Shown here in pieces: positions 1,995 through 57,900 of a DNA stretch of 64,000 bases (position 1 is the first letter of the stretch; every line of letters begins with the position of its first letter). Origin of the DNA: Azolla caroliniana (Eukaryota > Plantae > Polypodiophyta); contig JBHGNT010000009.1 in assembly GCA_043228905.1 (NCBI GenBank), positions 5,394,001 through 5,458,000 of the forward strand, written 5' to 3'. The notes beneath the pieces are model-generated. The model was given only the letters and a program-made list of their open reading frames with translations, did no database searches and was not told the DNA's origin. A program made the translations under genes and the position numbers.

Positions 1995-2033
<39 letters not shown>
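1995..2033. repeat. (AG)n microsatellite
   Basis: Pure AG dinucleotide run. Confidence 0.95.
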
Positions 2034-2035
<2 letters not shown>

Positions 2036-2095
2036 TAGCTCAGTTGGTAAGGTTGCCCAATGGAGACTAGGAGCTCATGGGTTCAACCCCTACAT
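2034..2095 (+). mobile_element. tRNA-derived SINE head or tRNA pseudogene
   Basis: GTAGCTCAGTTGGTAAGG (A-box) ... GGGTTCAACCCC (B-box) at tRNA-like spacing; no convincing anticodon or acceptor stem. Confidence 0.55.
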
Positions 2096-2194
2096 TTCAC
2101 AGTGGCATTTGGTGAATTAAAAGATATGTATGAAGTATACAATAGAGAGGTGAGTAAAATTTGGGTCTCAAAACCAAGACATAGTGGCTTGTAG

Positions 2195-2635
2195 TGTAAG
2201 AACTTACCAATAGGATAAGCTAATTACAATAAAAAAAATAGAGAGGGAATATATGATAAAAGGAAAATATATTATAGAAAAGGAGTACAAAGATATGAAT
2301 AGCTTAGAGGCTTAAGACCGGCATTGAATCGAATTGGTTTGAATAGAAAAATATGGCTCTATTTATAGGGCATTAGGAGTATTCCTGGAGTTTCTAGGAA
2401 GTTCTAGAATATTCATGAATTTTTTAAATTATTACGAAAAGTTTTCTGGAGTTTCTGGAAAGTTCTAGAGCATTCTAGAATATTCATGAATTGTTTAAAT
2501 TATTCCAAACAGTTTTAGAACCTAGGTGAAATAACAAATAAAATTAACAACCATATTTATTCTAATGATAAGGCCTCGATCTATGTATTGTAAGATCACG
2601 GGTTTAAATTCTGGTTGGGGCCAAATCATGATACA
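2195..2635 (-). mobile_element. Solo LTR, related to 25394-25912 and 26694-27150
   Basis: TGTAAG...CATGATACA ends, minus-strand TATA (ctatttatag ~2359), TTCTAGAA arrays, and AGAGGCTTAAGAC(C/T)GGC similarity to 26694-27150. TSD not resolved, so the left end is uncertain. Confidence 0.6.
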
Positions 2636-4685: not shown

Positions 4686-5039
4686 CCGTCTGACTCCGTA
4701 ACTTGTGTTGTTCACCTTGATTGTAATCTAGGTGAACACACATATTTATACAAGTTTTGAGATTGAATATCTCTAGAATATACCTAAGAAATATCTCTAG
4801 AATATACTTGAGAAATATCTCTAGAATATACTCGTCTAGAATATACCATAGAACATTTCTAGAATATACTAAAGACTTGAATATTCTATATGCTTTACTA
4901 TATAAAATATTAAACATATATTATATATAACTTAAAGGTTTCCAAATGGTTTATCTAATACTAAGTATTAGGTGTGTTATAAGTCAGAGGTTCGAGTCTA
5001 GATGTGACATTATCCTCCCTCGTACGCTGCCTTCCCAAA

Positions 5040-8000
5040 CACGTCGTTGGTTTGTGGGGATATCGGAGATGAAAATATTGAACCACTTCTAGGGCATTTT
5101 GTAAATAAACTATTCACGGGGTTCGCATGTGGTGTTAGACAAGGGCTAACCCTTCCACAAGACGAGGTATTGCATGTGTCGACGATGCAAACGTGACTCA
5201 AGTATTTGGTCGACATCATATTCCTCGCATGTCGTCAACTGCATAGGTGGTGGTGGGGGGCATGGCGTCTTGGGAGTTGTGAAGCATAATGGGGCTCGAG
5301 GAGGGAGACATGAAAAACATCATGAATCTGGAAGTGGGATGGAAGGGCCAGCCAGAAGGCGACGAGTTTGATGTGCTCAATTATATGGATTTGGTTGACG
5401 TACTCCGTCTGACTGTCAATCTGAGGGTGATAGGCGGAGGACAACTTGACGAAGATGCCTAAAGTTTGCAGCAGGCGCTGCTAGAAGTGAGAGACAAACT
5501 AGGGTCCACGATCTGAGATGACATCATTGGGGAGGCCATGCAAACCGACCACATTACTGAGGAGTAGATGCGTCATTCCCTCTCCGGAAATGGTTTTAAA
5601 GCAAGGAGTGACGTGAGCCATCATTGTAAACCGATCAACAACGACCAACATCAAGTCATAGCTATTGACCAAGGGTAGATCAGTTATGAGGTCCATAGAG
5701 ATAGACACCCAAGGACGACTAGGACATGGAAGTGGCTGGAGTAAGCCATATGGCCGATGATGAGCAACTTTGGAGCGAGCGCAAACCTCACAAGTCTTGA
5801 TGTATTCTTTGACCAATGTCCATGGTTGTAGCCACCAATACCCTTGAGAGATTAGTTCGAGGGTTTTTGCAACTCTGAAGTGACCCGCAAGGGGGTCATC
5901 GTGGCATTCCCTCAACACCCGGGTGCGACACGGGCCCTCCGGGACGTATAAGAGACGATCGCGGAATAACAAACCATCTTGTATGGTGAAGTGATCAAGG
6001 TCCGTCATTATGGGCGTCTTGGAGGGATTTTGTAGACTATCTCAAATCTCGTTGGAAAATGCATCATCCGTGGATGCATCAGTGATCTGTTGGAGTAATG
6101 AATCATCCTGCAACATACAAGTGGCAAAAAGATGCAATTGGTCGGGTTTCAACAAACATCGAGATTGTTGAGCATGAACGGCATCCCCGAGGTGGATGGC
6201 AAATTCGAATTGATGAGAAAGAGCATCAACCTTCCCATGTAGGCCACTAGGTCGAAATATGATCTCAAAATCATAGTCGGCGAGAAATGTTGACCAACGA
6301 GCCTACCTTCGATTCAAAGTACGAGTAGTGGAAAAATAAACTAAATTCTTATGATTAGTCATTACTTGGACACAGTGTTGTGCTCTTGCCAAGTCGGCGC
6401 CATTCTTCAAAGGCAGCAATGTTAGCAGCAAGCTCCTTGTCGTATATTGGATCATTGATTTCAGATACCGTGAATTGGTAGGAGTAGTAAGCCACTGGGT
6501 GCATTATGTTGGATTCATCAACCTGAGATAAAATGACGCCAATGGCAAAGTCAAAGGCATCAGTCTCGACCTGGAAGGGTCGTGTGGGGTCAGCATGTAG
6601 AAGCACTAGGGCAATGGTGAATGCGTGTTTGAGAGAGTCGAACGCATTTTGTGCCCCTGAGGTCCATAGAAAGGGATTACCTTTGTGTGTGAGGGCAATA
6701 AGAGGATGGGCTAGAGTGGAAAACCCCCGCAATGAAGCGACGGTAAAAATTAGCAAAGCCAAGGAAGGATTGCACATCTTGAAGTTGAGTTGGAGTCGCC
6801 CACTCTCGAATGATGGAAACCTTCTTCATATCCTTCGTGATGCCAGTGGGCAAGGTATGGTCGAACTCATATTTCTCACTTTTGGCATAAAGGCCATGCT
6901 CCCGAAGTTTTGCAAGAACTAATTGTACTTGACGGGTGTGCTTCGCCATGTTTGGCGAAAAAATGAGAATATTATCCAGGTAGATGACCACAAAATGATC
7001 GAGATATTCCCGGAATAAATCGTTCATCATATGTTGAAAAACAGCTCCAACGTTAGTAAGGCTGAAAGGCATTACCTTGTATTCGAAATGCCCATATCGT
7101 GTTCAGAAGGCGGTTTTCCATTCATCACCGGGCTTGATGCACACCAGATTGTATGCGCCATGCAAATCAACTTTGGCGAAGACACGCGCAGCGTGGAACT
7201 GGTCAGGAGTTTGGGGATCAAAGGGAGCGGATAGAGGTTGCGCATAATGAGTTTGTTGAGATCCCCATAGTCTACACATAAGCGTAGAGAGTCGTCCTTC
7301 TTCTTCACAAATAATATGGGGGGGCCTGACTGGCGACTTAGAAGGTTGAATAAATCCTTTCGCGAGGTTCTCATCGAGATACACTCGAAGGGCCTTTAGC
7401 TCTGATGCAGACAATACATATAGAGGATGAAAGGGTGGACACACGCCTTCTTGAATATCGATGGGACAGCCATAGAGACGATGTTCTGGCAAACGATTTG
7501 CATTACGTTTCTCAAATACATTGGAGAAGTCTTTATACTTTTCGGGAATAGCATGGAGTATGTTAGAAGTAGCTCCACAAACGGCGAGTAGGTGATGAAC
7601 TAAGGGTGGAGTGGCCGAGTCAGAATCAACCGTATCCGGAGGATGTGAAACTGAATTGACCTTCATAGTTATGTGCGAGCATCTTGGCTCGCTAAATGTG
7701 ATCGAGCGATTGCACCAATCCACTATTGGATTGTGCGCCTCCAACCACGATAGTCCTAAGACGATTGCATGATGAGGGGATGCGATGAGGTAAAAGGGGA
7801 GCTCCTCCTAGTGGGAGCCCACACGAAGCCCTAATGGGATGGTAGTCTCGGTAATTGCTCCTGACGAGAGGACACACCCGTCAATGGTTTCAACAGGAAT
7901 GGGTTTTGAGAGGCACATGACGGGTATCCCATGTGCTGGGGGGAATGCCACATCAATGAAGCAAGAAGACACTCAAGAATCCAAGAAAGCGACAGACTAA

Positions 8001-9130
8001 ATGGAACTAGAATTAAAAGAAAGGCATGCCTCCAATGTGAAATTGCCTGATGTTCTAGCAATGGAACCACGATAATGTGGATGATGGGAGACTCCAGCTA
8101 CATGGCTCCTACTGCAACTAAAAATTTCGTTTTCCAGACGTTGGGGTTCATTGGCTTGATGGAACAGTGGGCGATTACTCCTAGGAAAATGGCGAAGGGG
8201 ATGACCCAAGGCAAAATAATATAGGCACAATATAGGAAATTCTCGTCGGCATTAGTCAATGGCTGAAAGCAAGCTTGATCAATTTCCATTGGGACTGGAG
8301 CATCTGCCAAAGTAGGGGAGCGTGATGCCACAAGAGGGAGTGATACCTAGGGTTGTACAATTGGGGCGTGTCGTCAAAGCGAATGAGTCGAACTCCAAGT
8401 CTGACGCTCTTCCTGGCGAAATTCAAAAACACAATTGTCACAATGGACTGCTTGTGAAATCGCTTGGATAACAAGGTGGGCTTGGGAAAGATCAAGAGAA
8501 GATTCTTGACATTGCTCCGAAGGCCCTACCAAAAGTGATCAGCTAAAGCTTGATCATCCCAGTTGCCATTACATGCTAGTTGTCGGAATTCCAAAGCATA
8601 GACAGAAGTTGCACGCGAACCTCGTTTGAGTGCATAAAGCTTGGTGAGGGATGTACGTCGCCGGTCCTTCTCTCCAAATGTGGCCTGTAACCTAGCGAGG
8701 AAGGCGGGAAAGTCCGGACCAATAGAGGTGACAAAGTTTCTTCTAAAGGTGCAAACCAAGCTTCGGTCGAACCGGAGAGGAGGGTGCCTACAAGTTCAAC
8801 TGGTCAAAGACCATCTGCATAACATTGAGGTTATTGCCGAAGGATTAGACGAATTTGGTTGATGAACCCCTGGAAACGTGACCTCGTTCCATCAAATTTT
8901 TCTGGGAGGCTAATCTTAGGCTCAAGAAAATGAGAAGAAGGTAGATCGGATGTTGGTAGAAGATTGGGCTCCGGGCTAGGTTATGGTGGCACACTAGGCT
9001 CTATGGGCTGTGAGGATAGGGAGGCGCCGACTTGAAGTTCTCGTAAAGAATTCCGAAGAGCTTCATTGTCAAGCTGGATTCGTTGTAAGGATGTCATTAT
9101 TTGGCTTAAGTCACAGACTACGTCAGACAT
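5040..9130 (-). pseudogene. Gypsy gag-pol pseudogene with C-terminal chromodomain
   Basis: ATG at 9130 (MSDVVCDLSQ...), gag (YALEFRQLA...WDDQAL; VPMEID), RT (VVIYLDNILIFS, QSFLGFANFYRRF), RH (ETDAFDFAIG, YDKEL), INT (CHDDPLAGH, ISMDLITDLP, ISDRGP), chromodomain EEYDVDQILESRLHRRHMQYLVLWKG at ~5070-5230. Many stops and frameshifts. Confidence 0.9.
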
Positions 9131-9167
9131 AGCTACGACTAACGAGAATGAGAGCTACAAGGATGGG

Positions 9168-9178
9168 AAGGTGAACAA
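9168..9178 (-). other. Self-priming primer-binding site (no tRNA complementarity)
   Basis: Minus-strand TTGTTCACCTT lies 2 nt downstream of the 5' LTR and is the exact complement of AAGGTGAACAA, found ~32 nt after the LTR TATA box (4708-4718). Confidence 0.75.
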
Positions 9179-9744
9179 ATTGACAGAGGTAGAAAATATA
9201 CACAAGAGAGTAGAAGATAATCAAAGGGATGAGTTGACTAATTGAAAGACTCTGTAACTGGTGTTGTTTACCTTGATTGTAATCTAGGTGAACATACATA
9301 TTTATACAAGTTATGAGATTGAATATCTCTAGAATATACCTAAGAAATATCTCTAGAATATACCCGAGAAGTATCTCTATAATATACTCGTCTAGAATAT
9401 ACCATATAACATTTCTAGAATATACTAAAGACTAGAATATTCTATATGCTAGACTATATAAAATATTAACCAACTTAAGACTTTTCAAATGGTTTATATA
9501 ATACTAAGTATTGGGTGTGTTATAGGTCATAGGTTCGAGTCTAGATGTAACACCGTCAAGTTGCGAAAATATCTTAGAACTCTTTTGTGAGGAGTCATTG
9601 TTAATAGATGCAATGAAGAAGACAGATGGCAACAAGAAACAAAATCAAGAAGGAAGATCAACAAGAACGCAAGAGAGAGAGAGAGAGACGTTAGGCACAA
9701 AATGAACTATATTTACAACCACCAAAAAGCTAGGTTACAAAGCT

Positions 9745-10436: not shown

Positions 10437-11074
10437 GTAATTGAAATAAATGTACTGTAAAAGATTATATTGTGGAAGCTTTGATAGAACCGATTCCACC
10501 ATATAACAACAAAGAATAAAGACACACGTTTAATGGAAACCTTACACAGGGGGTTCCACCGTATAACAATAGAGAATAAAGACACAGGTTTAATGGAAAC
10601 CTTACACGAGAGAGACAAAGAGAGTAAAAAGCATAAACTCAATTTAAAATAATAACCCTCTCTGTAACACTCTTTACATACAATGTGCTCAGTGAGCACT
10701 TTTATACAAGTCCATGAAAGGACTGATAGAAGTACTGACTAGTACTTCAATGCTCATACGAGCGAATGACATTGACTCCCAAAAATACACCTACGTACTA
10801 GGCTAGATTCATAGGTCTCTCAAGGCCTACCGGTTACAATATGATCCAGCTCTTGGTTCTAGATATCGATTTGGACATTGATCCAGTTCTTCGTTACGGA
10901 CATTGATCCAGCTTTGGCTTATTTAGCCGATCTGATCCGGTTGAGCTTGTTCGCTCAACACTCCCCCTCAAGCTCAATTTGAGGCCTGATCGCAGTGTCA
11001 ATGCCAGTGGTAGCCCGTCCTCTCCTCCGGCTCCACCTGGCGTCCTCTCGCCTTTCTCGCGCTCCTCCTCCCGT

Positions 11075-19014: not shown

Positions 19015-22000
19015 TGTTGGGATTATGGTCCCTTTCGGATGGGATGGTCGGATGTCTGAAGATGAATGCCGACATGCCCGGTTTCGGTTTCGGAACCGGA
19101 TGATGAAGACCCCGGTTTCGGAACCGGATGACGAATGTACCCGGAGAGAGATCCGGATGCGGGCACATATCTGCGAATATGTTTGCCAAGAGCCCTTGAG
19201 GCTATAGTTGTAAATAGCCCTAAAGTCATATGTGTATAAATATGACTTAGGGCAAACAGTTTTGTTGTTGCTATTCATTTTTCTGTTTTTCCACTCTAGA
19301 GGAGTGAAGAGAGAGCAGCCGTGAGAGAGAGAGAGAGATAGAGCGCGAGAGAGGAAGAGGACGACGCCTCTGTGTATTTCCGCCGCCTGTGGCGAGGACA
19401 GCGAGCTCAAGGTCGTCGCCTTGCAGCTCGCCATTGTATACTTTCTTGTGCATAGTGTTGGTTTGGAGTCTTGTACTCCCGTGGTTTTTCCCGTACAGGG
19501 TTTTCCACGATAAATCGTGTGTCCTCTCTATTTTTTTGCATTTCCCATTTTCTGCTCCATTGATTCGCGCTTGCTCGGTTGTGGCCGAGCGGTGAAGGTT
19601 AATAGAAGGGTCGATCCCCAACAATCTGGTATCAGAGCGAGTTGCTGCAGAAAATGGAAGGCGGCGGCAGCGGGCAGCCGGGGATGATGGTGCTGAATGC
19701 GCAGAATTACGCCGACTGGAAGATCAAGATGGAGGATCTTCTGATTGTTCGGGACCTGTACAAACCGATCGACAGGTCGGAAATACCGAAAGGGGTACTT
19801 GAGTCGGAGTGGAAGCTCCTGAACCGGAAAGCCGTAGCGACGATCCGACAGTATGTCGATGTAAGCGTCCTACAACATGTGGCGAACGACACCAACGCAT
19901 ATGAGATGTGGAAGAAGCTGTCGGGCCTCTACGAGAGGAAGAATGCGTTGAACCGGACCTCCCTGATGAGGAAGATAGTGAATCTCAAGTACCGGGATGG
20001 CGAGAGTATGGTGGAACACGTAAGCACATTCATGGGATTCGTGAATCAGCTTGCGGCGATCAAGTTCCCGTTGGAGGATGCAATGCAAGCCATCATCCTG
20101 ATGTGTACATTGCCGGAAAGCTGGGAGAACTTGGTGGTGACTCTCAGCACCTCCTGCACAGAAGATAACTTGTCCTTGCAAACGGTAAAGACAAGTATTT
20201 TGAACGAAGAAGCGCGTCGGAGAGATAAAGAACCGGCCTCCGACCCGAAGGCGCTGCTTACCGAATCGGATCGGGGAAGACAATGGAACCGGAGTCCGCA
20301 AAGACGGGAGAAGTCGGGGACCCGGTCGCAGTCAAGAGGAAGGCCCACATGCTTCCACTGTGGGAAGCCGGGGCACTTCCGAAAGAATTGTCGGCATTAC
20401 CGAAAAGACAACGGAGCCGACGACACCGATTCGAAGAAGTCACCGGAGAGAAACGGTGCATACCGGGGAGCCACGGACCGGAGAGGTTCGGATCGGCGAG
20501 GGCAGGACAGGAAAGGAACAACGGCACTCGCGGCAAGTGAGGAAGAAATCATGGTCATCACCGAAGAAGGTGAACTAAACATTGCCGGCGATGAGACGAC
20601 CTGGGTGGTCGATTCCGGAGCATCGTTCCACCTGACCCCGGAGAGAAGATACTTCTCATCCTACACAGCCGGTGAGCATGGCTGTGTTCGGATGGGAAAT
20701 GAAGGTACGTGCCGGATTGCCGGCATAGGAGACGTGTGGTTGACAACCCCGACCGGATGCAAAATGCTGCTGAAGGATGTCCGACACGTTCCGGAGGTTC
20801 GATTGAACCTGATTTCGGCCGGGAGGCTAGACGATGAAGGCTACACAGGTAGCATCCGGAACGGCGTGATGAAGTTCAGCAAGGGGAGCCTGATAGTGGC
20901 TAGGGCCCGGAAAGACAACACACTGTACCTGATGAATGCCCGGTTATGTCCGGAAGAGCTGAATGTGGCAGCCGACACTGCCGGTGAGCTGTGGCACAAA
21001 AGACTGTGTCACATGAGTGAGAAGGGGATGAAGAGGCTTGCAGAAGACAACCTCATTCCAGTGAAGCATGTGCACCTGGAGAAGTGCACCGATTGCCTGG
21101 CCGGTAAGCAGAACCGAGCCTCCTTCCACTCAAGGCCACCGACGAGACGTAGAGCACCATTGGAGTTGGTGCACACCGATGTGTGTCAGGTAGAAACGAA
21201 GTCACATGGCGGAGCCCAGTACTTCGTAACATTCATAGATGATCATAGCCGAAGACTGTGGACGGCACCGATGAAGACAAAGGACCAAGTGTTGTCCGTC
21301 TTCAAAGAACTCCACGCGAGAGTGGAAAGAGAATCCGGCAAGAAGCTGAAGGCGATACGAGCGGATAACGGAGGGGAATACCGGGGGCAGTTCCAGGAGT
21401 ACTGTCGCTCGAAGGGAATCCGGCTCGAGTTTACTGTGCCGAAGACGCCGGAACTGAACGGGCTGGCCGAGAGGATGAACCGGACCATAATGGAGAGGGT
21501 CCGGAGTATGCTGGCGCATGCGAAATTACCCAAGGGGTTTTGGGCTGAGGCAATGTCGACGGCGACATATGTGATAAACCGATCACCCTCAGTACCTTTG
21601 GACGGGGACACGCCGCAGAGAGTGTGGACCGGTAGGGAAGTATCCTACCGGCATCTGAAGGTGTTCGGGTGTCTCGCATACGTGCATGTGGCAAAGGACC
21701 GGAGAGGAAAGCTAGATCCAAAGACCCGGCCATGCATATTCCTCGGTTACGGCGACGACGAGTTCGGCTACCGAGTATGGGACCCGGTCGACAAGAAGAT
21801 ATTTAGGAGTCGAGATATCATCTTCATGGAGAACAAGACACTCGCCGACTGGGAGTCGGAGAAGAAGATGAAGAGCTCCAAGTGGACCGGTGAGGATCAA
21901 CTCTACGAGGAGCAGTCCCGACCGGCAAGGGACCGTTTAGCACTCGAGGATCTGGCCGAAGACGGTGAAGAAACAGAACCGGCCGAAGAAGATGAAAATG

Positions 22001-24346
22001 ATACCGGAACCGGCCCCGATCCCGAAATGGATTCGGATGAAGAAGAATCGGAAGAACCGGTTACCGAAGCTCCGGAACGGAGATATCCTCTAAGAGAGAG
22101 AAGGGCCCCCCGGAGATTTCCGGAACCAGAGCACCTGTTGCTAACCGACGAGGGGGAGCCGGAGAGCTTTGAAGAGGCAAAACATGACACCCAGAGCCGC
22201 AGGTGGTTGAGTGCCATGCAGGACGAGATGGATTCCCTGCATGAGAACCACACATATGAACTTGTGGAGCTGCTGAAAGGAAAACGGGCACTCCGTAACA
22301 AGTGGGTGTTCAAGCTGAAACCGGGAGATGCCGGAAACCCCCCGAGATACAAAGCCAGGATCGTGGTGAAGGGGTTTCAGCAGAAGAAGGGCGTCGACTT
22401 CGACGAGATATTTGCCCCGGTAGTGAAGATGACCTCCATCCGGACGGTGCTGAGCATAGCGGCAAGCATGGACCTCGAGGTAGAACAGATGGACGTGAAG
22501 ACGGCATTCCTTCACGGTGACCTCGATGAAGAGATCTACATGCAGCAACCGGAAGGATTCGAGAAGAAAGGGAAGGAGCACCTGGTATGCCGGTTGAAGA
22601 AGAGCCTTTACGGACTGAAGCAGGCTCCCCGGCAATGGTACCGGAAGTTCGACTCCTTCATGACCGACGAAGGGTATCTCAAAACGCAGTCCGACCACTG
22701 CGTGTTTGTGAAGAAGTTCGAAGGAGGAGACTTTCTAATACTCCTCCTGTACGTGGACGACATGTTGATCGTCGGACGGGACCAGGTCAAGATACGGATG
22801 CTGAAGAAGGCTCTTCACCGAACCTTCTCAATGAAAGACTTGGGTCCGGCGAGACAAATACTAGGGATGCACATCATCCGGGACCGGAGCAAGAAGCAGT
22901 TGTGGCTGTCACAGGAGAAGTACGTGACAAAGGTGCTTGAACGGTTCAACATGTCGGAAGCAAGACCGGTCGGATCGACCCTCCCGGCAAACTGCAAGCT
23001 GTCCAGCAAGCAAAGTCCCAAGCCAAAGGCTGAAAAGGAGGATATGATGAAAGTGCCGTATGCCTCAGCCGTCGGGAGCTTGATGTACGCCATGGTGTGT
23101 ACGAGACCGGACATCGGATATGCAGTCGGAGTGGTGAGCCGGTACATGAGCAATCCCGGCAAAGAGCATTGGAACGCGGCCAAGTGGATACTCCGATACC
23201 TGAAGGGCACGACAAACGTGTGCCTCCGATTCGGCTCCGGTAAGCCCGAACTCGACGGCTTCACCGATTCGGATATGTCGGCTGATGCAGATACCAGCCG
23301 ATCCACATCAGGGTATGTGATGACGTATGCAGGGGGAGCTGTTTCATGGCAGTCGAGGCTGCAGAAGACGGTTGCGTTGTCAACCACGGAGGCGGAGTAC
23401 ATGGCGGCTGTTGAAGCCGGCAAGGAAATGATATGGATGAAGGACTTCATTAGAGAGCTCGGTATCCGACAGGAGGAGTACCGACTCTACTGCGACAGTC
23501 AGAGCGCAATCCACCTTGCGAAGAACGCGGCCTATCACTCCCGGACGAAGCACATCCAGCGAAGATATCACTGGATCCGGGAAAGGATAGAAGACAAGGA
23601 GTTCGTGCTGACGAAGATCCACACGGACGAGAACGGGTCGGATATGCTGACCAAGGTGCTTACACCCGACAAGCTGGAAGCATGCCGGAAGAGGATAGGA
23701 TTGGAGAGACATCCCATACCGAAGTGAAGGGGGAGTTTGTTGGGATTATGGTCCCTTTCGGATGGGATGGTCGGATGTCCGAAGATGAATGCCGACATGC
23801 CCGGTTTCGGTTTCGAAACCGGATGATGAAGACCCCGGTTTCGGAACCGGATGACGAATGTACCCGGAGAGAGATCCGGATGCGGGGACATATCTGCGAA
23901 TATGTTTGCCAAGAGCCCTTGAGGCTATAGTTGTAAATAGCCCTAAAGTCATATGTGTATAAATATGACTTAGGGCAAACAGTTTTGTTGTTGCTATTCA
24001 TTTTTCTGTTTTTCCACTCTAGAGGAGTGAAGAGAGAGCAGCCGTGAGAGAGAGAGAGAGATAGAGCGCGAGAGAGGAAGAGGACGACGCCTCTGTGTAT
24101 TTCCGCCGCCTGTGGCGAGGACAGCGAGCTCAAGGTCGTCGCCTTGCAGCTCGCCATTGTATACTTTCTTGTGCATAGTGTTGGTTTGGAGTCTTGTACT
24201 CCCGTGGTTTTTCCCGTACAGGGTTTTCCACGATAAATCGTGTGTCCTCTCTATTTTTTTGCATTTCCCATTTTCTGCTCCATTGATTCGCGCTTGCTCG
24301 GTTGTGGCCGAGCGGTGAAGGTTAATAGAAGGGTCGATCCCCAACA
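19015..24346 (+). mobile_element. Intact, young Ty1/Copia element (Tnt1/Tork-like), copy A1
   Basis: 609-bp LTRs at 19015-19623 and 23738-24346 (3 differences seen by eye), perfect TSD CTTCT (19010-19014 / 24347-24351), PBS TGGTATCAGAGC 19627-19638, PPT 23726-23735. Confidence 0.97.
19654..23727 (+). CDS. Copia gag-pol polyprotein, intact (~1357 aa from the first ATG)
   Basis: Uninterrupted ORF: gag, CFHCGKPGHFRKNC knuckle, DSGAS protease, LWHKRLCH GAG-pre-integrase, integrase D-D-E (HTD, RADNGGEY, NGLAER), RT YVDD, RH (SDMLTK). Confidence 0.97.
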   Translation: MEGGGSGQPGMMVLNAQNYADWKIKMEDLLIVRDLYKPIDRSEIPKGVLESEWKLLNRKAVATIRQYVDVSVLQHVANDTNAYEMWKKLSGLYERKNALNRTSLMRKIVNLKYRDGESMVEHVSTFMGFVNQLAAIKFPLEDAMQAIILMCTLPESWENLVVTLSTSCTEDNLSLQTVKTSILNEEARRRDKEPASDPKALLTESDRGRQWNRSPQRREKSGTRSQSRGRPTCFHCGKPGHFRKNCRHYRKDNGADDTDSKKSPERNGAYRGATDRRGSDRRGQDRKGTTALAASEEEIMVITEEGELNIAGDETTWVVDSGASFHLTPERRYFSSYTAGEHGCVRMGNEGTCRIAGIGDVWLTTPTGCKMLLKDVRHVPEVRLNLISAGRLDDEGYTGSIRNGVMKFSKGSLIVARARKDNTLYLMNARLCPEELNVAADTAGELWHKRLCHMSEKGMKRLAEDNLIPVKHVHLEKCTDCLAGKQNRASFHSRPPTRRRAPLELVHTDVCQVETKSHGGAQYFVTFIDDHSRRLWTAPMKTKDQVLSVFKELHARVERESGKKLKAIRADNGGEYRGQFQEYCRSKGIRLEFTVPKTPELNGLAERMNRTIMERVRSMLAHAKLPKGFWAEAMSTATYVINRSPSVPLDGDTPQRVWTGREVSYRHLKVFGCLAYVHVAKDRRGKLDPKTRPCIFLGYGDDEFGYRVWDPVDKKIFRSRDIIFMENKTLADWESEKKMKSSKWTGEDQLYEEQSRPARDRLALEDLAEDGEETEPAEEDENDTGTGPDPEMDSDEEESEEPVTEAPERRYPLRERRAPRRFPEPEHLLLTDEGEPESFEEAKHDTQSRRWLSAMQDEMDSLHENHTYELVELLKGKRALRNKWVFKLKPGDAGNPPRYKARIVVKGFQQKKGVDFDEIFAPVVKMTSIRTVLSIAASMDLEVEQMDVKTAFLHGDLDEEIYMQQPEGFEKKGKEHLVCRLKKSLYGLKQAPRQWYRKFDSFMTDEGYLKTQSDHCVFVKKFEGGDFLILLLYVDDMLIVGRDQVKIRMLKKALHRTFSMKDLGPARQILGMHIIRDRSKKQLWLSQEKYVTKVLERFNMSEARPVGSTLPANCKLSSKQSPKPKAEKEDMMKVPYASAVGSLMYAMVCTRPDIGYAVGVVSRYMSNPGKEHWNAAKWILRYLKGTTNVCLRFGSGKPELDGFTDSDMSADADTSRSTSGYVMTYAGGAVSWQSRLQKTVALSTTEAEYMAAVEAGKEMIWMKDFIRELGIRQEEYRLYCDSQSAIHLAKNAAYHSRTKHIQRRYHWIRERIEDKEFVLTKIHTDENGSDMLTKVLTPDKLEACRKRIGLERHPIPK

Positions 24347-25393: not shown

Positions 25394-25793
25394 TGTCATG
25401 ACGACATACATTTTGGCCTTACAAGGATTCGAGCCCAAGTCGTCTTGGTCTATATGTTAGACCTTTAACCATTATACTGACATATATGATGTATAATTAT
25501 AATAAATATATTATTAGTTATTACAAGACATTTAGAGTATTCTAGAACATTCTAGAGTATTCCAAAACAATCTAGAGTATTCTAGAACATTCTAGGATAT
25601 TCCATGATTATATTAAATATCATAAATATCTAAAATATTCTAGAACATTCTAGAATACTCCATAAGGACCTATAAATAGGTGTCTATTCATTCATCACAA
25701 CTCATTCAGTTCAACACCAGTTTGTAGCCCCTTAGCTTACTCTTTGTAATCCTTGCTCTCTTATAATATAAACTCTCTTTCCATTTCTAGTGT

Positions 25794-25858
<65 letters not shown>

Positions 25859-25912
25859 CTCTACCTTCTACTGTCATCTTATTTTACTACCTCCTATTCT
25901 CAAGTCATGACA
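25394..25912 (+). mobile_element. Solo LTR inserted in the B1 5' LTR
   Basis: TGTCATGA...TCATGACA termini, perfect TSD ACAAT (25389-25393 / 25913-25917), TATA cctataaata ~25669-25678, (CT)n ~25798-25856. Confidence 0.9.
25638..25655 (+). promoter_or_regulatory. Perfect 4-unit heat shock element
   Basis: TTCtaGAAcaTTCtaGAA ~15 nt upstream of the LTR TATA box, with further HSE-like blocks at 25539-25600. Confidence 0.65.
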
Positions 25913-26009: not shown

Positions 26010-28233
26010 CGAAACAGACAAACCCTAATCACTAGTAAAGAATAGAAGAGAGGAGGAAGATATGGACAGAAGCATGGTGGGCTCACTTCCAACGAAAAAG
26101 CTCGACCGGAGCAACTATGCATCTGGGTCGTATAAACTTCATGAATACCTGTTGGGGCACGGATACTGGAGCTACGTGGAAGGAGCAAATGTAGCAGCGC
26201 CAGATTCGGCACACAAGGACTTCCCGGTATGGGAGCAAGGAACGAGCAAAGTGTTGTATTGCCTCGCGTCCTGTGTGCATGACCAAATGCTCGGCTATAT
26301 TAGGGATGCAAAAACGCCGAAAGAGGCCTGGGAAAATCTCCAGAAGATTTTCGTCGCAAGTACCACGGCTCGGCTCTTGCAGCTCCAACAAGAGCTCAAC
26401 AATATCCGGCAACGGGACATGTCGGTCACTGACTACACCACCAAGATGAAGGAGAGTTGCAACGTGCTCAGGTCCATCAACGTGACAGTGGACGAGGACG
26501 AGATGGTTCAGATCTGCCTCAGTGGTCTAGCACACCGGTACGGGCCAATCTAGACGGCAATTTGCACCCAGTAGAAGCCACCATCCTTCGTCGACCTGCG
26601 ATCAATGTTCATGGTCAAAGAAAAATGCATGAGTGTGTCAAGGACCACTCAATCGGACAACCTGATGTTGTACACGGAAACGGATCGGCCCCGTGTCAAG
26701 AATAGTACTAAAACAGAGAGAGAATTAGTACTAGAGAAGGGAAGTATTATTAGTCCTAAGAGGACGGGACTGCATAAGACTCCCGAGAGAGAGAAAAGAG
26801 AAGAGGAGAGAGAGAGTGTGTGAGTGAGTGAGGACGAGAGAGAGAGAGAGGAGATGATGATAACAGATGATATATTATAGGAAGAGTAAGTACAAGATGG
26901 CTATGAGGCTTAAGACTGGCGTTGAACCAATTTGGTTCAACATAATGCCTAGTGCCTTCTTTTATAGTGTTCTCAGGAGTAATCCTGAAGCTTCTAGAAT
27001 GTTCCAGAGAAATCTGGAATATACATTAATTTCCTATAATAAAACTTAAATGAAAATATTCTCCTACGTATTACAATAGATGGTATAATGTTCAAGAGCT
27101 CAACCCATATAACATAAGTTCATGGGTTCGAGTCTTGCCATATCATGACACCCCATGGGCATGGAGGACAAGGTGGGTCGGCACACAATGCAAGCAGCCA
27201 ATAAGAGCGGAACCGGAGGCACAAAGATAGTGCCAACAACAATTCCAGACCCTCCACAAGCAGGGGGAGTCAAAGCGGCGCCGGAAACCAGCAATCAAAG
27301 ATCAACACAGAATGTTGGTATTGTGGCAAGAAAGTCCACCGGGAGAGCGAGTGCTGGAAGAAGCATGCCGATTCGAATAGATCCGGATCCGGCAAGACCG
27401 GACAAGGGAACCGGCAAAGCTCGCACTATGTTGAAGGATCGAAAGGTTTCGGAATTGGTAAGACCTGAAAGGGGCCACCCTTTGTGATGAAACACAAGGC
27501 GAACTCAATGAAGAAGACCACTTCTGGATCGGAGGAAGTGTGGTACATTGACTCCGGAGCATCTAACCACATGATGAGCCACGAAGAGTGGTTCTCGTTT
27601 CTGGAAAAGCCGGAGCAACAAGGAGTTGTCGAAACCGGAGACGACACTCCTCACCCGATAGTGCATGTCGGAGAAGTCCCTTTAAGCCATGTCGGACAAA
27701 AGGGAAAGTTAATGAATGTCACCCGATAGTGGCAGATGAGAAGCGGAGAAATGCATCCTTGGCGGCTACTCACATGAGCAAAAGGGTTATAAGTGTTATA
27801 ACCCTCGAACAAGATAAGTTCCAATGAGCCAAGATGTCGAATTTGATGAGTCGGCATCATACTACTCTCTACCAACTCCAACCCGGTTTGAGAGGATAAG
27901 GCCAGTGAGCCCGAAACAATCCGGACAGAAGGTGAGGAAGGGATCGACACTCTGGATGAGAGTCCAATCTCATTCCCTCTAAGTGGGCCGAATGGGCGCT
28001 TGAGTCAAAATGACCAATCAGATGACGAGTCCGCGAGTAGCGAAGACTTGACCGTGTTATCCCCGCGCAAGGAACCGAGGAGACAATTCACATGCAAAAA
28101 GAAGGGGAAGAAGAAGATGTCAGAGTATGATACCAACAAAGAAGAGTTGGATCATAGTGAATCTGGCAAAAGATGGACCTCCAAAGAAGAGGTCAGAGTC
28201 AGCCAAGAGGTCCATGAAATTGGCGAACCAGAT
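26010..28233 (+). mobile_element. Copia family B, copy B3, 5' part (gag, protease; integrase deleted)
   Basis: ORF 26062..26553 (KLDRSNYASGSYK, AKTPKEAWENL), WYIDSGASNHM, deletion at ~27720; continues in frame on the minus strand from 34000. Confidence 0.85.
26694..27150 (-). mobile_element. Solo LTR inserted in B3 gag
   Basis: TGTCAAGA...TCATGACA, TSD CCCCG/CCCCA (uninterrupted homolog GATCGGCCCCATGGGC at ~35095), HSE GAAgcTTCtaGAAtgTTC at 26987-27004. Confidence 0.88.
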
Positions 28234-54927: not shown

Positions 54928-57900
54928 TTAATGTCCGCTACCTTTTGTTCTTCCAAAGAACCTACTGAATCCAGAAGAACCATGCTTCTCTGCATTCTCA
55001 TTGTCTACATGCTTAGATTGCTCATGAGAGTTACCATTATTATTCTTACTTCTTAAGCTCAGAAACCTGGCGGGAGACCGCAATGGAGAGCTTAAAATCG
55101 GGTCAGAATTGGGATTTGTAATATTTTGCCCATTCTCCTGAAAATCACCATGAGTTGGCGATGGATAGCTATTGAAGCTCTTGTGGTTTTGTGTCTGCTT
55201 TCCATATGATCTTTGCCCACCTTTCTTACCTACAGGTGTACTAGGTTCTTCTTGATACCCTCCTGAATAGGGAATAGCCTTTAAAGATTTCATTCCTCCA
55301 TTATCTTGTTTATGTTTGCTCTCATCTATTGATCTATAACGTTCTCTCACATCGTCCATGCATTGCCTCTCATCTGTAGCGGAATCTTGTTCACTTGAAC
55401 TATATGTAGAGTTATTATGAGGTGAAGGTAAATCCAATATATTCTTAGAAACACCCAATGCCTTGAGCTGCTTTCCTAAATCCAATATTGTTTGTTGACA
55501 TTCTGCCAATTTCTCTGCTGCAGCAGCTATCTCTTGCTCCTGTATAAATAAGCATGATTATTTTCAATACCTATTGAATGCTTTATTTAAGGAGTTTTAC
55601 TAGGGCCAAACATTTTCCATCCATGCAAAAGAAACATATTTTTATGCATAAAATGACTATGGACCATGGTGCAGATCTAAATTATTTAAAGAAAAATCGG
55701 TAAAAGTTAAGTGGATTCTATTATACATAGATTTAACCCTAGTATATAATGCCCAGTAAAAGGAAATGGAAAGATAGTAAAGGAAATGGAAACTCTAGGT
55801 ATACCTTCTTTAACCTTGCAACTTCGTTGTCCTCTGACAATACTGAATTATTTCTTCCATGCATTCTTGTCTCCCTAGATCACCAGATTTAATACATTAT
55901 CAGGTAATGATATCAGAAATCTCAATCATGAATGCATACAATGTTACATGTAAGTTCAGCCAAAATACTAGTGAAAAAGAAAAATAGAAAGCCTAGTCAC
56001 TCTAGTGTTATTACATTTCAGTTCAGGCTAAATGCATTGTCAAGGACTGAACCAATTTCTAGCATGTAATATATATTCCTCCAGGATTACATCGAAGTTC
56101 AGTCCATATTTAAAGTTAAGGAAAAGGAAAAGAGTACATAGACAGTTCTTTGAGGGGTACATTATCAAGTAATGAAATCACAAATTCAAAGTACTTCATG
56201 AAAGTTCAGACCAAAAACAAATAAAAACAGGAAAAGGATACTTAATCCGTAACAAAACAAAGAAACAGCTAATCCATAACAAAAGAAGAAGAAATCTAAT
56301 ATCCATAATAAAAGGGAAAAAACCTGATATCCATAAAGAAGAAGAAAAACTAATACTTCACATCACAAAAACATGCACAAGGCAAAAGAAAGTATAATTA
56401 CCCTTTCTGAATGTCATACTCTCGCTTGAGTTCTAAATACTGCAAATTGGCTTCCTTTCGGCATCTAATCTCTTCATTTAGTTCTTTCTCTAAGTTTATA
56501 ACTTTCCTCTGAAGAGATTCCACATTTTCTTTTGCCATATACAGTTCAGATTCTAGTGCATTTTTGGCATATTCCACATCTCCAAGAATGGTCTCCATTG
56601 ATTGTTTTTTATCCATAGCTTCTTGGAGCTGAGCTTGCAATTCTATGGAATGTGCTTGTGAACTTACAAGTTCTTTACTTAGTTCCTGAACCCTTTGGTT
56701 TGCTTCATGTACTTGTGAACCAAGATCTGTAAGTTTTTCCATGGTAAGTTCATGGGTATGTTCTAGTTGTTCATTCACAAGCTTTAACCTTAATATCTCG
56801 CTTTCATATATGTTAGCCTTTCTTGTTTCTGCATCTAGACTCAACTTCAGCGTAGATAGTTCACATGAATTCTTTGATATGTCTTCTTCTTGAGTAGAGG
56901 ACTCAGAGAACTGGAAGCTTAGATTAGAAACTGAGCTATGGTCTTGAAGTGTTTCAATGGTTTTAGCTTCTTCGATATCACTTCCATTACCCATCATTTG
57001 AGTAGGACTACTTCTTGCACTACAAGTGATCTCAGAATCACTAGTATCAATTTGTAATTTATTATTGTTTTTGCAGTTTCTTGAAGAAGAAGAAGAAGAT
57101 GGTGATGATTTGACTTGATCTGCAAATATAAGACCAACAAGCCAATCTAGAGCTGAAGCAACCTCTGCAATAAAATCGATTATATCCACTTTTCCTTGAA
57201 CCAGACTATTACAGAGATTGATAAGACTTTCAACACAAGCATCTAAACCAGAGGTTCTCCATTGCTTCCCAGGACTATCAAAATCTCGTCCATCACCATT
57301 TTCTGTGTTATTTCCTGATATCCATCGAGAATAAGGAAAACTGTAGTCTGTTCTTCCTATACCTTCCACGATATCGAGAACTTTCCTCACAGCTGAAGCT
57401 AACTCTGCACCTGCATTACCAAACTCTATAGATGCATTTATTTGAGGTTCATCCACTATGTCTTGTGAATTGGTCCAAGAATTTAGTTTTTCTCCCTCAT
57501 TTGATGTGAAATTCTTGGTGGAAAGACAATCAATCTTGTTTATGCAATTATTACCTTCTTTTCTAATCTTGTTTCCATGATTATTATTCACTTCTTTTCC
57601 ATGTTTGTGTTCTTCATCTTTCTCACATTCAATTGCAATATTGGTTACACCCATAGACTTGCTAAGGAGAATTTTTCCATTTCCTTCTCCTTCCGCGCCA
57701 TTGAATCTCAGATCTAACAACTGCTCAAGTTGACTGATCGTGGAATCACTTACACTCTGTTTCTCCTTCAAAGCAATCAGTTGAGCTTCAGCATCAGCAA
57801 GCTTCTCTCTCAATTCTCTACATAGCTCATCCATAGACTCAGATAATACTACCACATTTCTTCCTCTTAGGCCATGTTCTTCTGTGTCTACTTGCTTCTC

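What the first reader, a model, noticed from the sequence alone, without database searches (positions are those of the whole stretch)
25539..25678. Perfect heat-shock-element arrays directly upstream of the TATA box in a solo-LTR family
Seen: alternating nGAAn/nTTCn 4-unit elements in three related solo LTRs: TTCtaGAAcaTTCtaGAA (25638-25655), TTCtaGAAtaTTCatGAA (2402-2419 and 2473-2490) and GAAgcTTCtaGAAtgTTC (26987-27004). Each lies between the tRNA-like module and the TATA box. The chromovirus LTRs have degenerate versions (22-bp CTCTAGAATATAC repeats, 4765-4890). Known: three or more alternating nGAAn units bind HSF, and heat-activated plant LTR elements such as ONSEN are Copia. Inference: a heat-inducible, probably Gypsy-type LTR with layout [Pol III box]-[HSE array]-[TATA], whose solo copies could confer heat responsiveness on neighbours.
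Basis: partly seen in the sequence, partly recalled or inferred. Interest (0 to 1): 0.7.

Follow-up and report, generated by a model that had tools for sequence, protein, structure and literature searches.

The report
Heat-shock switches in fern retrotransposons
A high-copy family of jumping genes, most likely in a fern, carries matches to the heat-shock-factor binding site at a fixed distance before the TATA box in nearly 4,000 end-repeats, so heat likely switches it on, a trick known from other jumping genes but untested here.

Summary
The motifs are real and far above chance: four perfect 4-unit HSEs against 0.035 expected. The 25394-25912 copy is a solo LTR with a 5-bp TSD. Full-length relatives (about 5.7 kb) encode gag-PR-RT-RH-INT-chromodomain, so the family is itself a Gypsy chromovirus. 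It has no tRNA PBS; the PBS pairs with the R start, and the two co-vary across subfamilies (Tf1-type self-priming). The host is most likely a fern. Genome-wide, 3,933 of 4,442 such LTRs hold TTCnnGAA exactly 33 bp before the TATA box. 59 of 60 LTRs picked without regard to HSE carry three or more perfect units. Core bases are conserved more than flanks (p=0.003). The host has HSF genes and similar HSEs at small-HSP genes. Best reading: an ONSEN-like, HSF-driven promoter, untested because no RNA data were found. Corrections: the '22-bp' repeats are 24-bp, belong to another family and are not HSE arrays; the Pol III-like box is antisense; no host gene was found near this solo LTR. Side finding: 149 fold-back junctions record the self-priming duplex. 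The scan's index held no earlier HSE finding. New variant of a known kind.

The parts
25394..25912 (+). Solo LTR A of a self-priming Gypsy chromovirus (TG...CA ends, 5-bp TSD ACAAT), inserted in the LTR of a minus-strand Copia element
   Evidence: full-length relatives
25426..25476 (-). Antisense tRNA-like module: A-box-like motif (25469-25476) and B-box-like motif (25426-25435), about 41 nt apart, followed by CCA
   Evidence: no tRNA call at default thresholds
25530..25607 (.). Distal HSE array: 16 in-phase 5-bp units, 8 perfect, including two perfect 3-unit runs (25540-25552, 25580-25592); the region 25539-25678 has no CG or CHG cytosines
25638..25655 (.). Proximal perfect 4-unit HSE; its first TTC is 33 bp before the first T of the TATA box
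25671..25678 (+). TATA box
   Evidence: position supported by the self-primer 33 bp downstream
25704..25715 (+). Inferred R start / self-primer, complementary to the PBS of full-length copies; marks the inferred transcription start
25799..25856 (+). CT microsatellite in the R/U5 part of the LTR
26694..27150 (-). Solo LTR C (sister subfamily, TSD 4 of 5 matching) inserted in a Copia gag: B box 27125-27134, perfect 4-unit HSE 26987-27004 with a TTC at -33, TATA 26960-26966, self-primer 26921-26932
2246..2633 (-). Decayed LTR B (third subfamily; left limit approximate): perfect 4-unit HSEs at 2402-2419 and 2473-2490, 3-unit at 2453-2465, TATA 2360-2367, self-primer-like site 2324-2335
2032..2245 (.). 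Separate high-copy repeat of about 215 bp with two opposed tRNA-like heads, flanked by (AG)n, interrupting LTR B
4692..5012 (-). 3' LTR of a different chromovirus family (E; partner LTR about 9248-9560) with 24-bp repeats that do not form HSE arrays

Best explanation
The array is the upstream promoter of a self-priming Gypsy chromovirus clade, most likely in a fern, and it likely binds host heat-shock-factor trimers, so that heat would switch on transcription from the TATA box 33 bp downstream. Shown: solo LTR of a gag-PR-RT-RH-INT-chromodomain element; HSE at a fixed place in about 89% of 4,442 LTRs; cores more conserved than flanks; PBS complementary to the R start. Inferred from established HSF biology and ONSEN: heat-activated HSF binds the 4-unit site (two trimers) and the distal array, Pol II starts about 33 nt after the TATA, the 5' end of the transcript folds onto the PBS and primes reverse transcription, and new copies arise after heat. 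In subfamily A the HSE region lacks CG and CHG sites, as the ONSEN LTR does, which would blunt maintenance methylation (inferred). This solo copy is most likely an inert or locally transcribing remnant.
For: Enrichment: 4 perfect 4-unit sites against 0.035 expected. Genome-wide: 1,031 sites of TTC-first 4-unit HSE plus CTATAAA, control 0; all but one of the 100 listed fall at two spacings 10 bp apart. 3,933 of 4,442 TATA+self-primer LTRs have TTCnnGAA at -33; 30 have it at -34 to -42. HSE-blind sample: 59 of 60 have 3 or more perfect units, 50 of 60 have 4 or more, shuffles give 0.14; the one miss is not a family member. Conserved across subfamilies whose LTRs are 66-71% alike and whose RT-RH is 75-90% identical. 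In lineage C (64 of 65 LTRs kept), 0 of 12 core columns of the 4-unit site carry an allele shared by 3 or more copies, against 15 of 31 flanking columns (Fisher p=0.003); spacer columns -25 and -24 do vary. The host has 10 HSF DNA-binding-domain matches, and 9 of 30 small-HSP loci have perfect arrays of 3 or more units of the same type upstream. Young copies exist: LTR pairs 99.7-100% identical in one subfamily. Precedent: 4P elements correlate with up to thousand-fold induction in Brassicaceae Copia (PMC5059998, passages); HSFA2 binds the ONSEN LTR (PMC3907296, passages); HSE mutation abolishes induction of a flatworm Ty3 LTR (PMC12801592, passages).
Against: No binding or induction was measured. 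Copies share descent, so counts are not independent, and the column test ignores the tree and includes some LTR pairs of one element. Subfamilies A and D are built from a 10-bp repeat that slips in 10-bp steps, which keeps phase without selection. Host small-HSP promoters show no fixed HSE-TATA distance (read by eye), so a helical-phase requirement is not shown. The mismatch-position test was weak: LTR units deviate at A3/G/A2 40/26/17 against 34/6/1 in host promoters. Two flatworm Copia families with an HSE were not induced. Solo LTRs and fragments of ONSEN were not heat-responsive, though they lacked functional HREs. The moss chromovirus RLG1 is repressed by heat (PMC7466625, section 17); it is a different host and family.
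Confidence: 0.68

Rival explanations
1. The arrays are bound by HSF-family proteins (or another factor reading the same palindrome) but serve another end: constitutive or developmental expression, response to another stress, or repression. Heat induction is weak or absent.
For: The conservation tests show constraint but cannot tell which signal uses the site. The host has several HSF genes; that some plant HSFs repress or answer other stresses is recalled, not tested. HSE-bearing families without induction exist.
Against: Perfect 4-unit sites close to a TATA box track strong heat induction in the Brassicaceae and flatworm studies. The same motif type marks the host's small-HSP promoters.
Confidence: 0.17
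2. The arrays are a neutral by-product: a 10-bp palindromic unit expanded by slippage in an ancestral U3 and was carried along by recent amplification.
For: 10-bp gains and losses among family A copies. Family E has TCTAGA-based repeats without HSE phase. The mismatch-position bias is weak. High copy number reflects few ancestors.
Against: Lineage C keeps invariant cores with unlike spacers, so it is not a tandem repeat. The TTCnnGAA at -33 persists across four subfamilies that each form one side of a branch in the RT tree and differ in the sequence between HSE and TATA. Two Copia LTR regions in the window have no such arrays.
Confidence: 0.1
3. The palindromes act as RNA or cDNA hairpins in replication, packaging or small-RNA production rather than as a protein-binding site.
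For: The D and A arrays fold into hairpins that weakly resemble miRNA precursors, all far below the Rfam gathering scores. The family does use fold-back pairing for priming.
Against: Any HSE array is palindromic. Lineage C has no long inverted repeat yet keeps the cores. The position is tied to the TATA box, not to PPT or PBS.
Confidence: 0.05

Closest known systems
ONSEN/COPIA78, TERESTRA, COPIA37, ROMANIAT5 (Brassicaceae Copia; PMC3907296 and PMC5059998, passages)
   Same: Perfect 3P/4P nGAAn arrays in the LTR. In subfamily A the HSE region has no CG or CHG sites, like the ONSEN LTR.
   Different: Here a Gypsy chromovirus, probably in a fern, with about 4,000 HSE-bearing LTRs (ONSEN has 24 copies in A. 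thaliana), a clade-wide fixed distance to the TATA, an antisense tRNA-like module and self-priming. No functional data here.
HSE-bearing Ty3/Mdg4 families of the flatworm Macrostomum lignano (PMC12801592, abstract and passages)
   Same: Gypsy-superfamily LTRs with canonical HSEs upstream of the start site.
   Different: Those are animal Mag, CsRN1 and Gmr1/Osvaldo clades of 4-20 copies with variable HSE position, and they were tested by reporter. This one is a plant chromovirus with invariant placement, untested.
Tcn1 clade / Tf1-sushi chromoviruses (PMC6317226 passages; PMC2864245 passages and section 7; bioRxiv 10.1101/2022.12.06.519325 passages)
   Same: About 5.7 kb, TG...CA LTRs, 5-bp TSD, chromodomain with Y/W/Y cage residues, no tRNA PBS, self-priming complementarity. 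RT-RH is closer to named fungal and vertebrate elements (48-63%) than to named seed-plant ones (45-49%).
   Different: Those papers place plant Tcn1 in mosses and spikemosses, and a PCR survey of 26 ferns and horsetails found none. No reference Tcn1 sequence was in my tree. HSE arrays are not mentioned in the passages read.
Helenus / TRIMp3 (PMC10886601, abstract and passages)
   Same: tRNA-like sequence inside an LTR.
   Different: Helenus are non-autonomous TRIMs whose Pol III promoter is thought to make the template. Here the element is autonomous-type, has a TATA promoter, and the module is antisense and degenerate.
Cryptococcus Tcn12 (PMC9942834, passages)
   Same: LTR retrotransposon mobilised only at 37 C, with a putative HSE in its LTR.
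   Different: A single imperfect step-type HSE, untested; fungal. I did not establish any kinship to this family.

Membership tests
Ty3/Gypsy chromovirus | Domain order gag-PR-RT-RH-INT | tested here: met
   Pfam on 2 full-length relatives (L031, L032)
Ty3/Gypsy chromovirus | Chromodomain at the integrase C-terminus | tested here: met
   PF00385 in L031; motif found in 18 of 25 elements scanned
Ty3/Gypsy chromovirus | TG...CA LTRs, PPT, 5-bp TSD | tested here: met
   perfect TSD in 14 of 18 elements whose two ends were located
Tcn1 clade (Tf1/sushi group) | No tRNA PBS; PBS complementary to the R start (self-priming) | tested here: met
   Complementarity with compensating changes between A/A2, C and D; fold-back junctions at the primer end
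Tcn1 clade (Tf1/sushi group) | Aromatic cage in the chromodomain | tested here: met
   Y, W and Y present in 15 of 18; the cage positions are recalled, not taken from a call
Tcn1 clade (Tf1/sushi group) | RT-RH-INT groups with Tcn1, PpatensLTR and SM-Tcn1 | tested here: inconclusive
   Quick tree separates the family from seed-plant and algal rows; the nearest named row is a fungal element (63%). No reference Tcn1 sequence was available.
Tcn1 clade (Tf1/sushi group) | Plant hosts reported: mosses and club-mosses | tested here: not met
   Host gene's best named hits are ferns (46-51%) against mosses and liverworts (31-39%). Filed as Tcn1-like, not as a proven member.
Heat-activated LTR retrotransposons (ONSEN type) | 3P/4P heat-shock element in U3 upstream of the start site | tested here: met
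Heat-activated LTR retrotransposons (ONSEN type) | HSF binds the LTR | not testable with these tools
   needs EMSA, DAP-seq or ChIP
Heat-activated LTR retrotransposons (ONSEN type) | Heat-induced transcripts and extrachromosomal DNA | not testable with these tools
   no run on record as RNA was listed
Helenus / TRIMp3 | Non-autonomous, no coding region | tested here: not met
   full-length coding elements exist
tRNA gene | Cloverleaf passing ARAGORN or Rfam thresholds | tested here: not met
   only inconsistent calls at a lowered ARAGORN threshold (5 of 6 modules)

The most novel reading that the evidence does not exclude
A fungal-type self-priming chromovirus clade has seeded a fern genome with about 4,000 complete heat-shock promoters of one fixed design (outward-facing Pol III box, HSE arrays, TATA at a fixed register). 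The Pol III box keeps the promoter open in heterochromatin, so heat triggers transposition bursts and a genome-wide LTR-driven heat regulon that outnumbers the host's own HSP promoters about a hundred-fold. The 149 fold-back insertions are a direct genomic record of self-primed reverse transcription in a plant.
Probability: 0.2. Interest if true: 0.78.

Novelty: new variant of a known kind. Interest (0 to 1): 0.5.

Why it matters
If true, this extends HSF hijacking from low-copy Copia families and flatworm Ty3 elements to a high-copy plant chromovirus in a non-seed plant. It gives thousands of natural promoter variants for testing HSE grammar, and asks whether so many sites titrate HSF or couple warming to genome expansion. 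The fold-back junctions give sequence-level evidence for self-priming, which the survey I read lists for plant elements only as predicted, and fix the primer end to the base. The basic idea (an HSE in an LTR) is known, which caps the interest.

Tried and rejected
Expression: no RNA holder listed. Three coded runs were laid as contigs: one, probably DNA, covers the element with mostly diverged relatives; the other two cover little or nothing. This is no evidence either way. Moss hypothesis: I first suspected a moss and compared the first 400 letters of the P. patens RLG1 and RLG2 transcripts by eye (Supplementary Table 1, cells cut at 400 characters). I saw no resemblance, and one search then pointed to a fern, so the P. 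patens expression data are context only. The uncut supplement sequences and the docx supplement were not seen. tRNA origin of the U3 module: no Rfam tRNA hit; BLAST against 40 host tRNA calls gave mostly T-loop-sized matches, best E 5e-4; no source tRNA assigned. Mismatch-position test: weak. Helical-phase requirement: not supported by host promoters; the literature search gave 2 unrelated papers; spacings shorter than -33 were not counted genome-wide. Family E as a degenerate HSE array: rejected. Effect on neighbours: no host gene found within about 25 kb of solo A among ORFs of 150 aa or more, of which 26 of 44 were scanned; the DNA left of the window, next to LTR B, was not examined. MAGGY: passages of PMC3978060 mention heat and copper effects but no HSE. 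Earlier findings: none on HSEs or this sequence; two searches returned notes on an unrelated PPT-less lineage.

Full report
Observation. The four quoted elements are exactly where stated. The window has 8 perfect arrays of 3 or more alternating GAA/TTC units (1.18 expected) and 4 of 4 units (0.035 expected); 7 of the 8 fall in three LTRs, here called A (25394-25912, +), B (about 2246-2633, -) and C (26694-27150, -). In A, 16 in-phase units run from 25530 to 25607, 8 of them perfect, then a perfect 4-unit site at 25638-25655 and the TATA box at 25671. A has TG...CA ends and the TSD ACAAT; the same target sequence stands uninterrupted near 10680, so A is a true insertion into a Copia LTR. C has a 4-of-5 TSD inside a Copia gag. 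B is decayed and interrupted. The three are 66-71% alike locally. The repeats at 4765-4890 are spaced 24, 24, 15 and 23 bp, belong to a family whose RT is 56% identical, and give 3 perfect units in 1 of 14 copies with a located TATA.

What the element is. Genome searches with A and C returned 40 scored matches each at 92-100% identity, many in pairs about 5.3 kb apart. I fetched 25 such regions; 24 were analysed as full-length elements and one short pair was left out. Pfam on two of them gives gag, protease, RVT_1, RNase H, integrase, SH3 and chromodomain in Gypsy order. 14 of 18 elements with both ends located have a perfect 5-bp TSD. The chromodomain keeps Y, W and Y at the cage positions (recalled) in 15 of 18. 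Four subfamilies (A, A2, C, D) each form one side of a branch in an RT tree. LTR pairs are 99.7-100% identical in A2 and 87-99.5% in the others. A neighbouring host gene has its best named relatives in Adiantum and Ceratopteris (46-51% identity) against 31-39% for mosses and liverworts, so the host is most likely a fern. RT-RH identity to named proteins is 48-63% for fungi, 53-56% for vertebrates and 45-49% for seed plants, and a quick tree keeps the family apart from seed-plant rows. Neumann et al. (PMC6317226, passages) describe plant Tcn1 as moss and club-moss chromoviruses with a cage and predicted self-priming; Novikova et al. (PMC2864245, passages and section 7) found none in 26 ferns and horsetails by PCR. 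I call the family Tcn1-like; no reference sequence was in my tree.

Promoter geometry. There is no tRNA PBS. The 12-14 bases after the 5' LTR are the reverse complement of a stretch starting about 33 nt after the TATA, and the two change together between A/A2, C and D. By analogy with Tf1, where the transcript start is the 5' end of the self-primer (bioRxiv 10.1101/2022.12.06.519325, passages), this places the start site near 25704 and supports the TATA call independently of the HSE.

Is the HSE kept? Among the top matches, 30 of 30 A copies and 18 of 20 C copies have 3 or more perfect units, but these were ranked by identity. So I selected LTRs by TATA plus self-primer only: 4,442 sites. Of these, 3,933 have TTCnnGAA exactly at -33 and 30 at -34 to -42; shorter spacings were not counted. 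In 60 loci have 3 or more perfect units within 200 bp, 50 have 4 or more, and shuffles give 0.14; the miss is a chance pattern match. Lineage C is the informative case: its array is not a tandem repeat, its spacers differ from unit to unit, and among 64 copies (of 65; HSE-selected loci excluded) 0 of 12 core columns of the 4-unit site carry an allele shared by 3 or more copies, against 2 of 6 spacer columns and 15 of 31 flanking columns (p=0.003; whole array 4 of 27 against 21 of 47, p=0.011). These tests ignore the tree. Against my reading: A and D arrays gain and lose 10-bp units by slippage; imperfect units in 12 LTR representatives deviate at A3/G/A2 40/26/17, much less sharply than 17 chosen host promoters (34/6/1); and host promoters show no fixed distance to the TATA (by eye).

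Host side. The genome has 10 HSF DNA-binding-domain matches, exon by exon. Of 30 small-HSP loci examined (33 matches), 9 have perfect arrays of 3 or more units 570-700 bp upstream of the domain match, built on the same TTCnnGAA core. The HSE region of A has 35 cytosines, all CHH, as in the ONSEN LTR (PMC3907296, passages); over the proximal region of the 59 LTRs there are 178 CHG and 4 CG, so this is not clade-wide. Methylation-driven decay could also produce it.

The tRNA-like module. It is antisense at the start of U3: a B-box match in 39 of 45 LTRs whose start was found (of 60), 0 in sense, with an A-box-like motif 39-41 nt upstream in four subfamilies and CCA soon after in 17 of the 39. 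It is not a tRNA gene. A barrier or insulator role is a guess; Helenus TRIMs (PMC10886601, abstract and passages) are the nearest precedent I found and differ in being non-autonomous.

Fold-back junctions. In 5 of 24 full-length elements the self-primer is followed directly by the reverse complement of the LTR end. Genome-wide there are 149 such pattern matches against 4,442 normal ones. Of 30 examined, 26 were confirmed by BLAST, 3 more by their first letters, and 1 was chance; the inverted stretch varies from under 30 bp to a whole LTR. One (L196) is U3-primer-inverted LTR with a perfect 5-bp TSD, so a fold-back cDNA was integrated. The likely cause is mispriming at the self-primer/PBS duplex during reverse transcription (inferred); template switching during DNA replication and assembly error were not excluded.

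Mechanism and verdict. Most likely HSF binds the arrays after heat, Pol II starts at the self-primer, and the element replicates by self-priming (0.68). Rivals: another signal or repression through the same site (0.17), neutral repeat (0.10), hairpin function (0.05). For this solo copy an effect on host genes is unlikely: it lies in a retroelement nest, about 25 kb from the nearest host-gene ORF found.

Literature. HSE-driven LTRs are known in Brassicaceae Copia (PMC5059998 and PMC3907296, passages) and flatworm Ty3 (PMC12801592, abstract and passages). A review lists heat-induced plant Gypsy transcripts, without HSE evidence in the passages seen (PMC9780303). Cryptococcus Tcn12 has a putative HSE (PMC9942834, passages). 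P. patens RLG1 is repressed and RLG2 induced by heat (PMC7466625: abstract, part of the text, section 17, Supplementary Table 1 with cut cells). I found no report of HSE arrays in fern or Tcn1-like LTRs (searches; one search gave one paper, PMC11656987, whose passages are not about ferns), nor of the fold-back junctions (two unrelated listings), nor of such a module in an autonomous LTR. The library lacks most subscription journals and supplements were mostly not read, so absence is weak. Rating: new variant of a known kind, interest 0.5.

Noticed in passing
L171-L200 (30 of 149 genome-wide matches); L106, L107, L109, L112, L118; L196: Fold-back junctions: the self-primer is followed directly by the reverse complement of the LTR end for variable lengths. 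L196 is a mirrored LTR integrated with a perfect 5-bp TSD. Likely footprints of self-primed reverse transcription.
   Followed up: partly
window 25426-25476, 27084-27134, about 4945-5000; L108, L115: Antisense tRNA-like A/B-box module at the start of U3 in this clade; a B box also stands at that place in the distant family E. In A2 the first 24 or so bases of the LTR appear duplicated.
   Followed up: partly
window 2032-2245; L037-L055: High-copy repeat of about 215 bp (hits 85-91% identical) with two opposed tRNA-like heads, flanked by (AG)n tracts, sometimes in tandem, and found inside the CT-rich part of related LTRs. SINE- or MITE-like, possibly microsatellite-targeting.
   Followed up: partly
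window 4692-9560: Decayed chromovirus of a second family (E) with 24-bp U3 repeats; LTRs 89% identical; RT 56% identical to family A.
   Followed up: partly
window 12200-38700: Nest of Copia elements (several tRNA-iMet-type PBS sites; a long ORF at 19606-23727 whose LTRs are 99% identical over the 300 bases compared) into which solo LTRs A and C have inserted.
   Followed up: no
G000:C9:17.88-18.26 Mb (L142-L145, L147-L153, L155-L158, L161): Cluster of 16 small-HSP matches on one contig, most with HSE-like arrays 570-850 bp upstream of the alpha-crystallin match.
   Followed up: partly
L035 (G000:C17:14410400-14413800): Two family A LTRs only 1.4 kb apart: an internally deleted, TRIM-like copy.
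   Followed up: no
proteins P0127-P0151: Unnamed proteins 80-91% identical to the family's RT-RH on contigs of mostly 3-6 kb in public assemblies, so close relatives occur in other samples; their LTRs were not seen.
   Followed up: no
window 56195-56207: A lone perfect 3-unit HSE between two ORFs of the filament-like plant protein gene; about one is expected by chance in the window.
   Followed up: no
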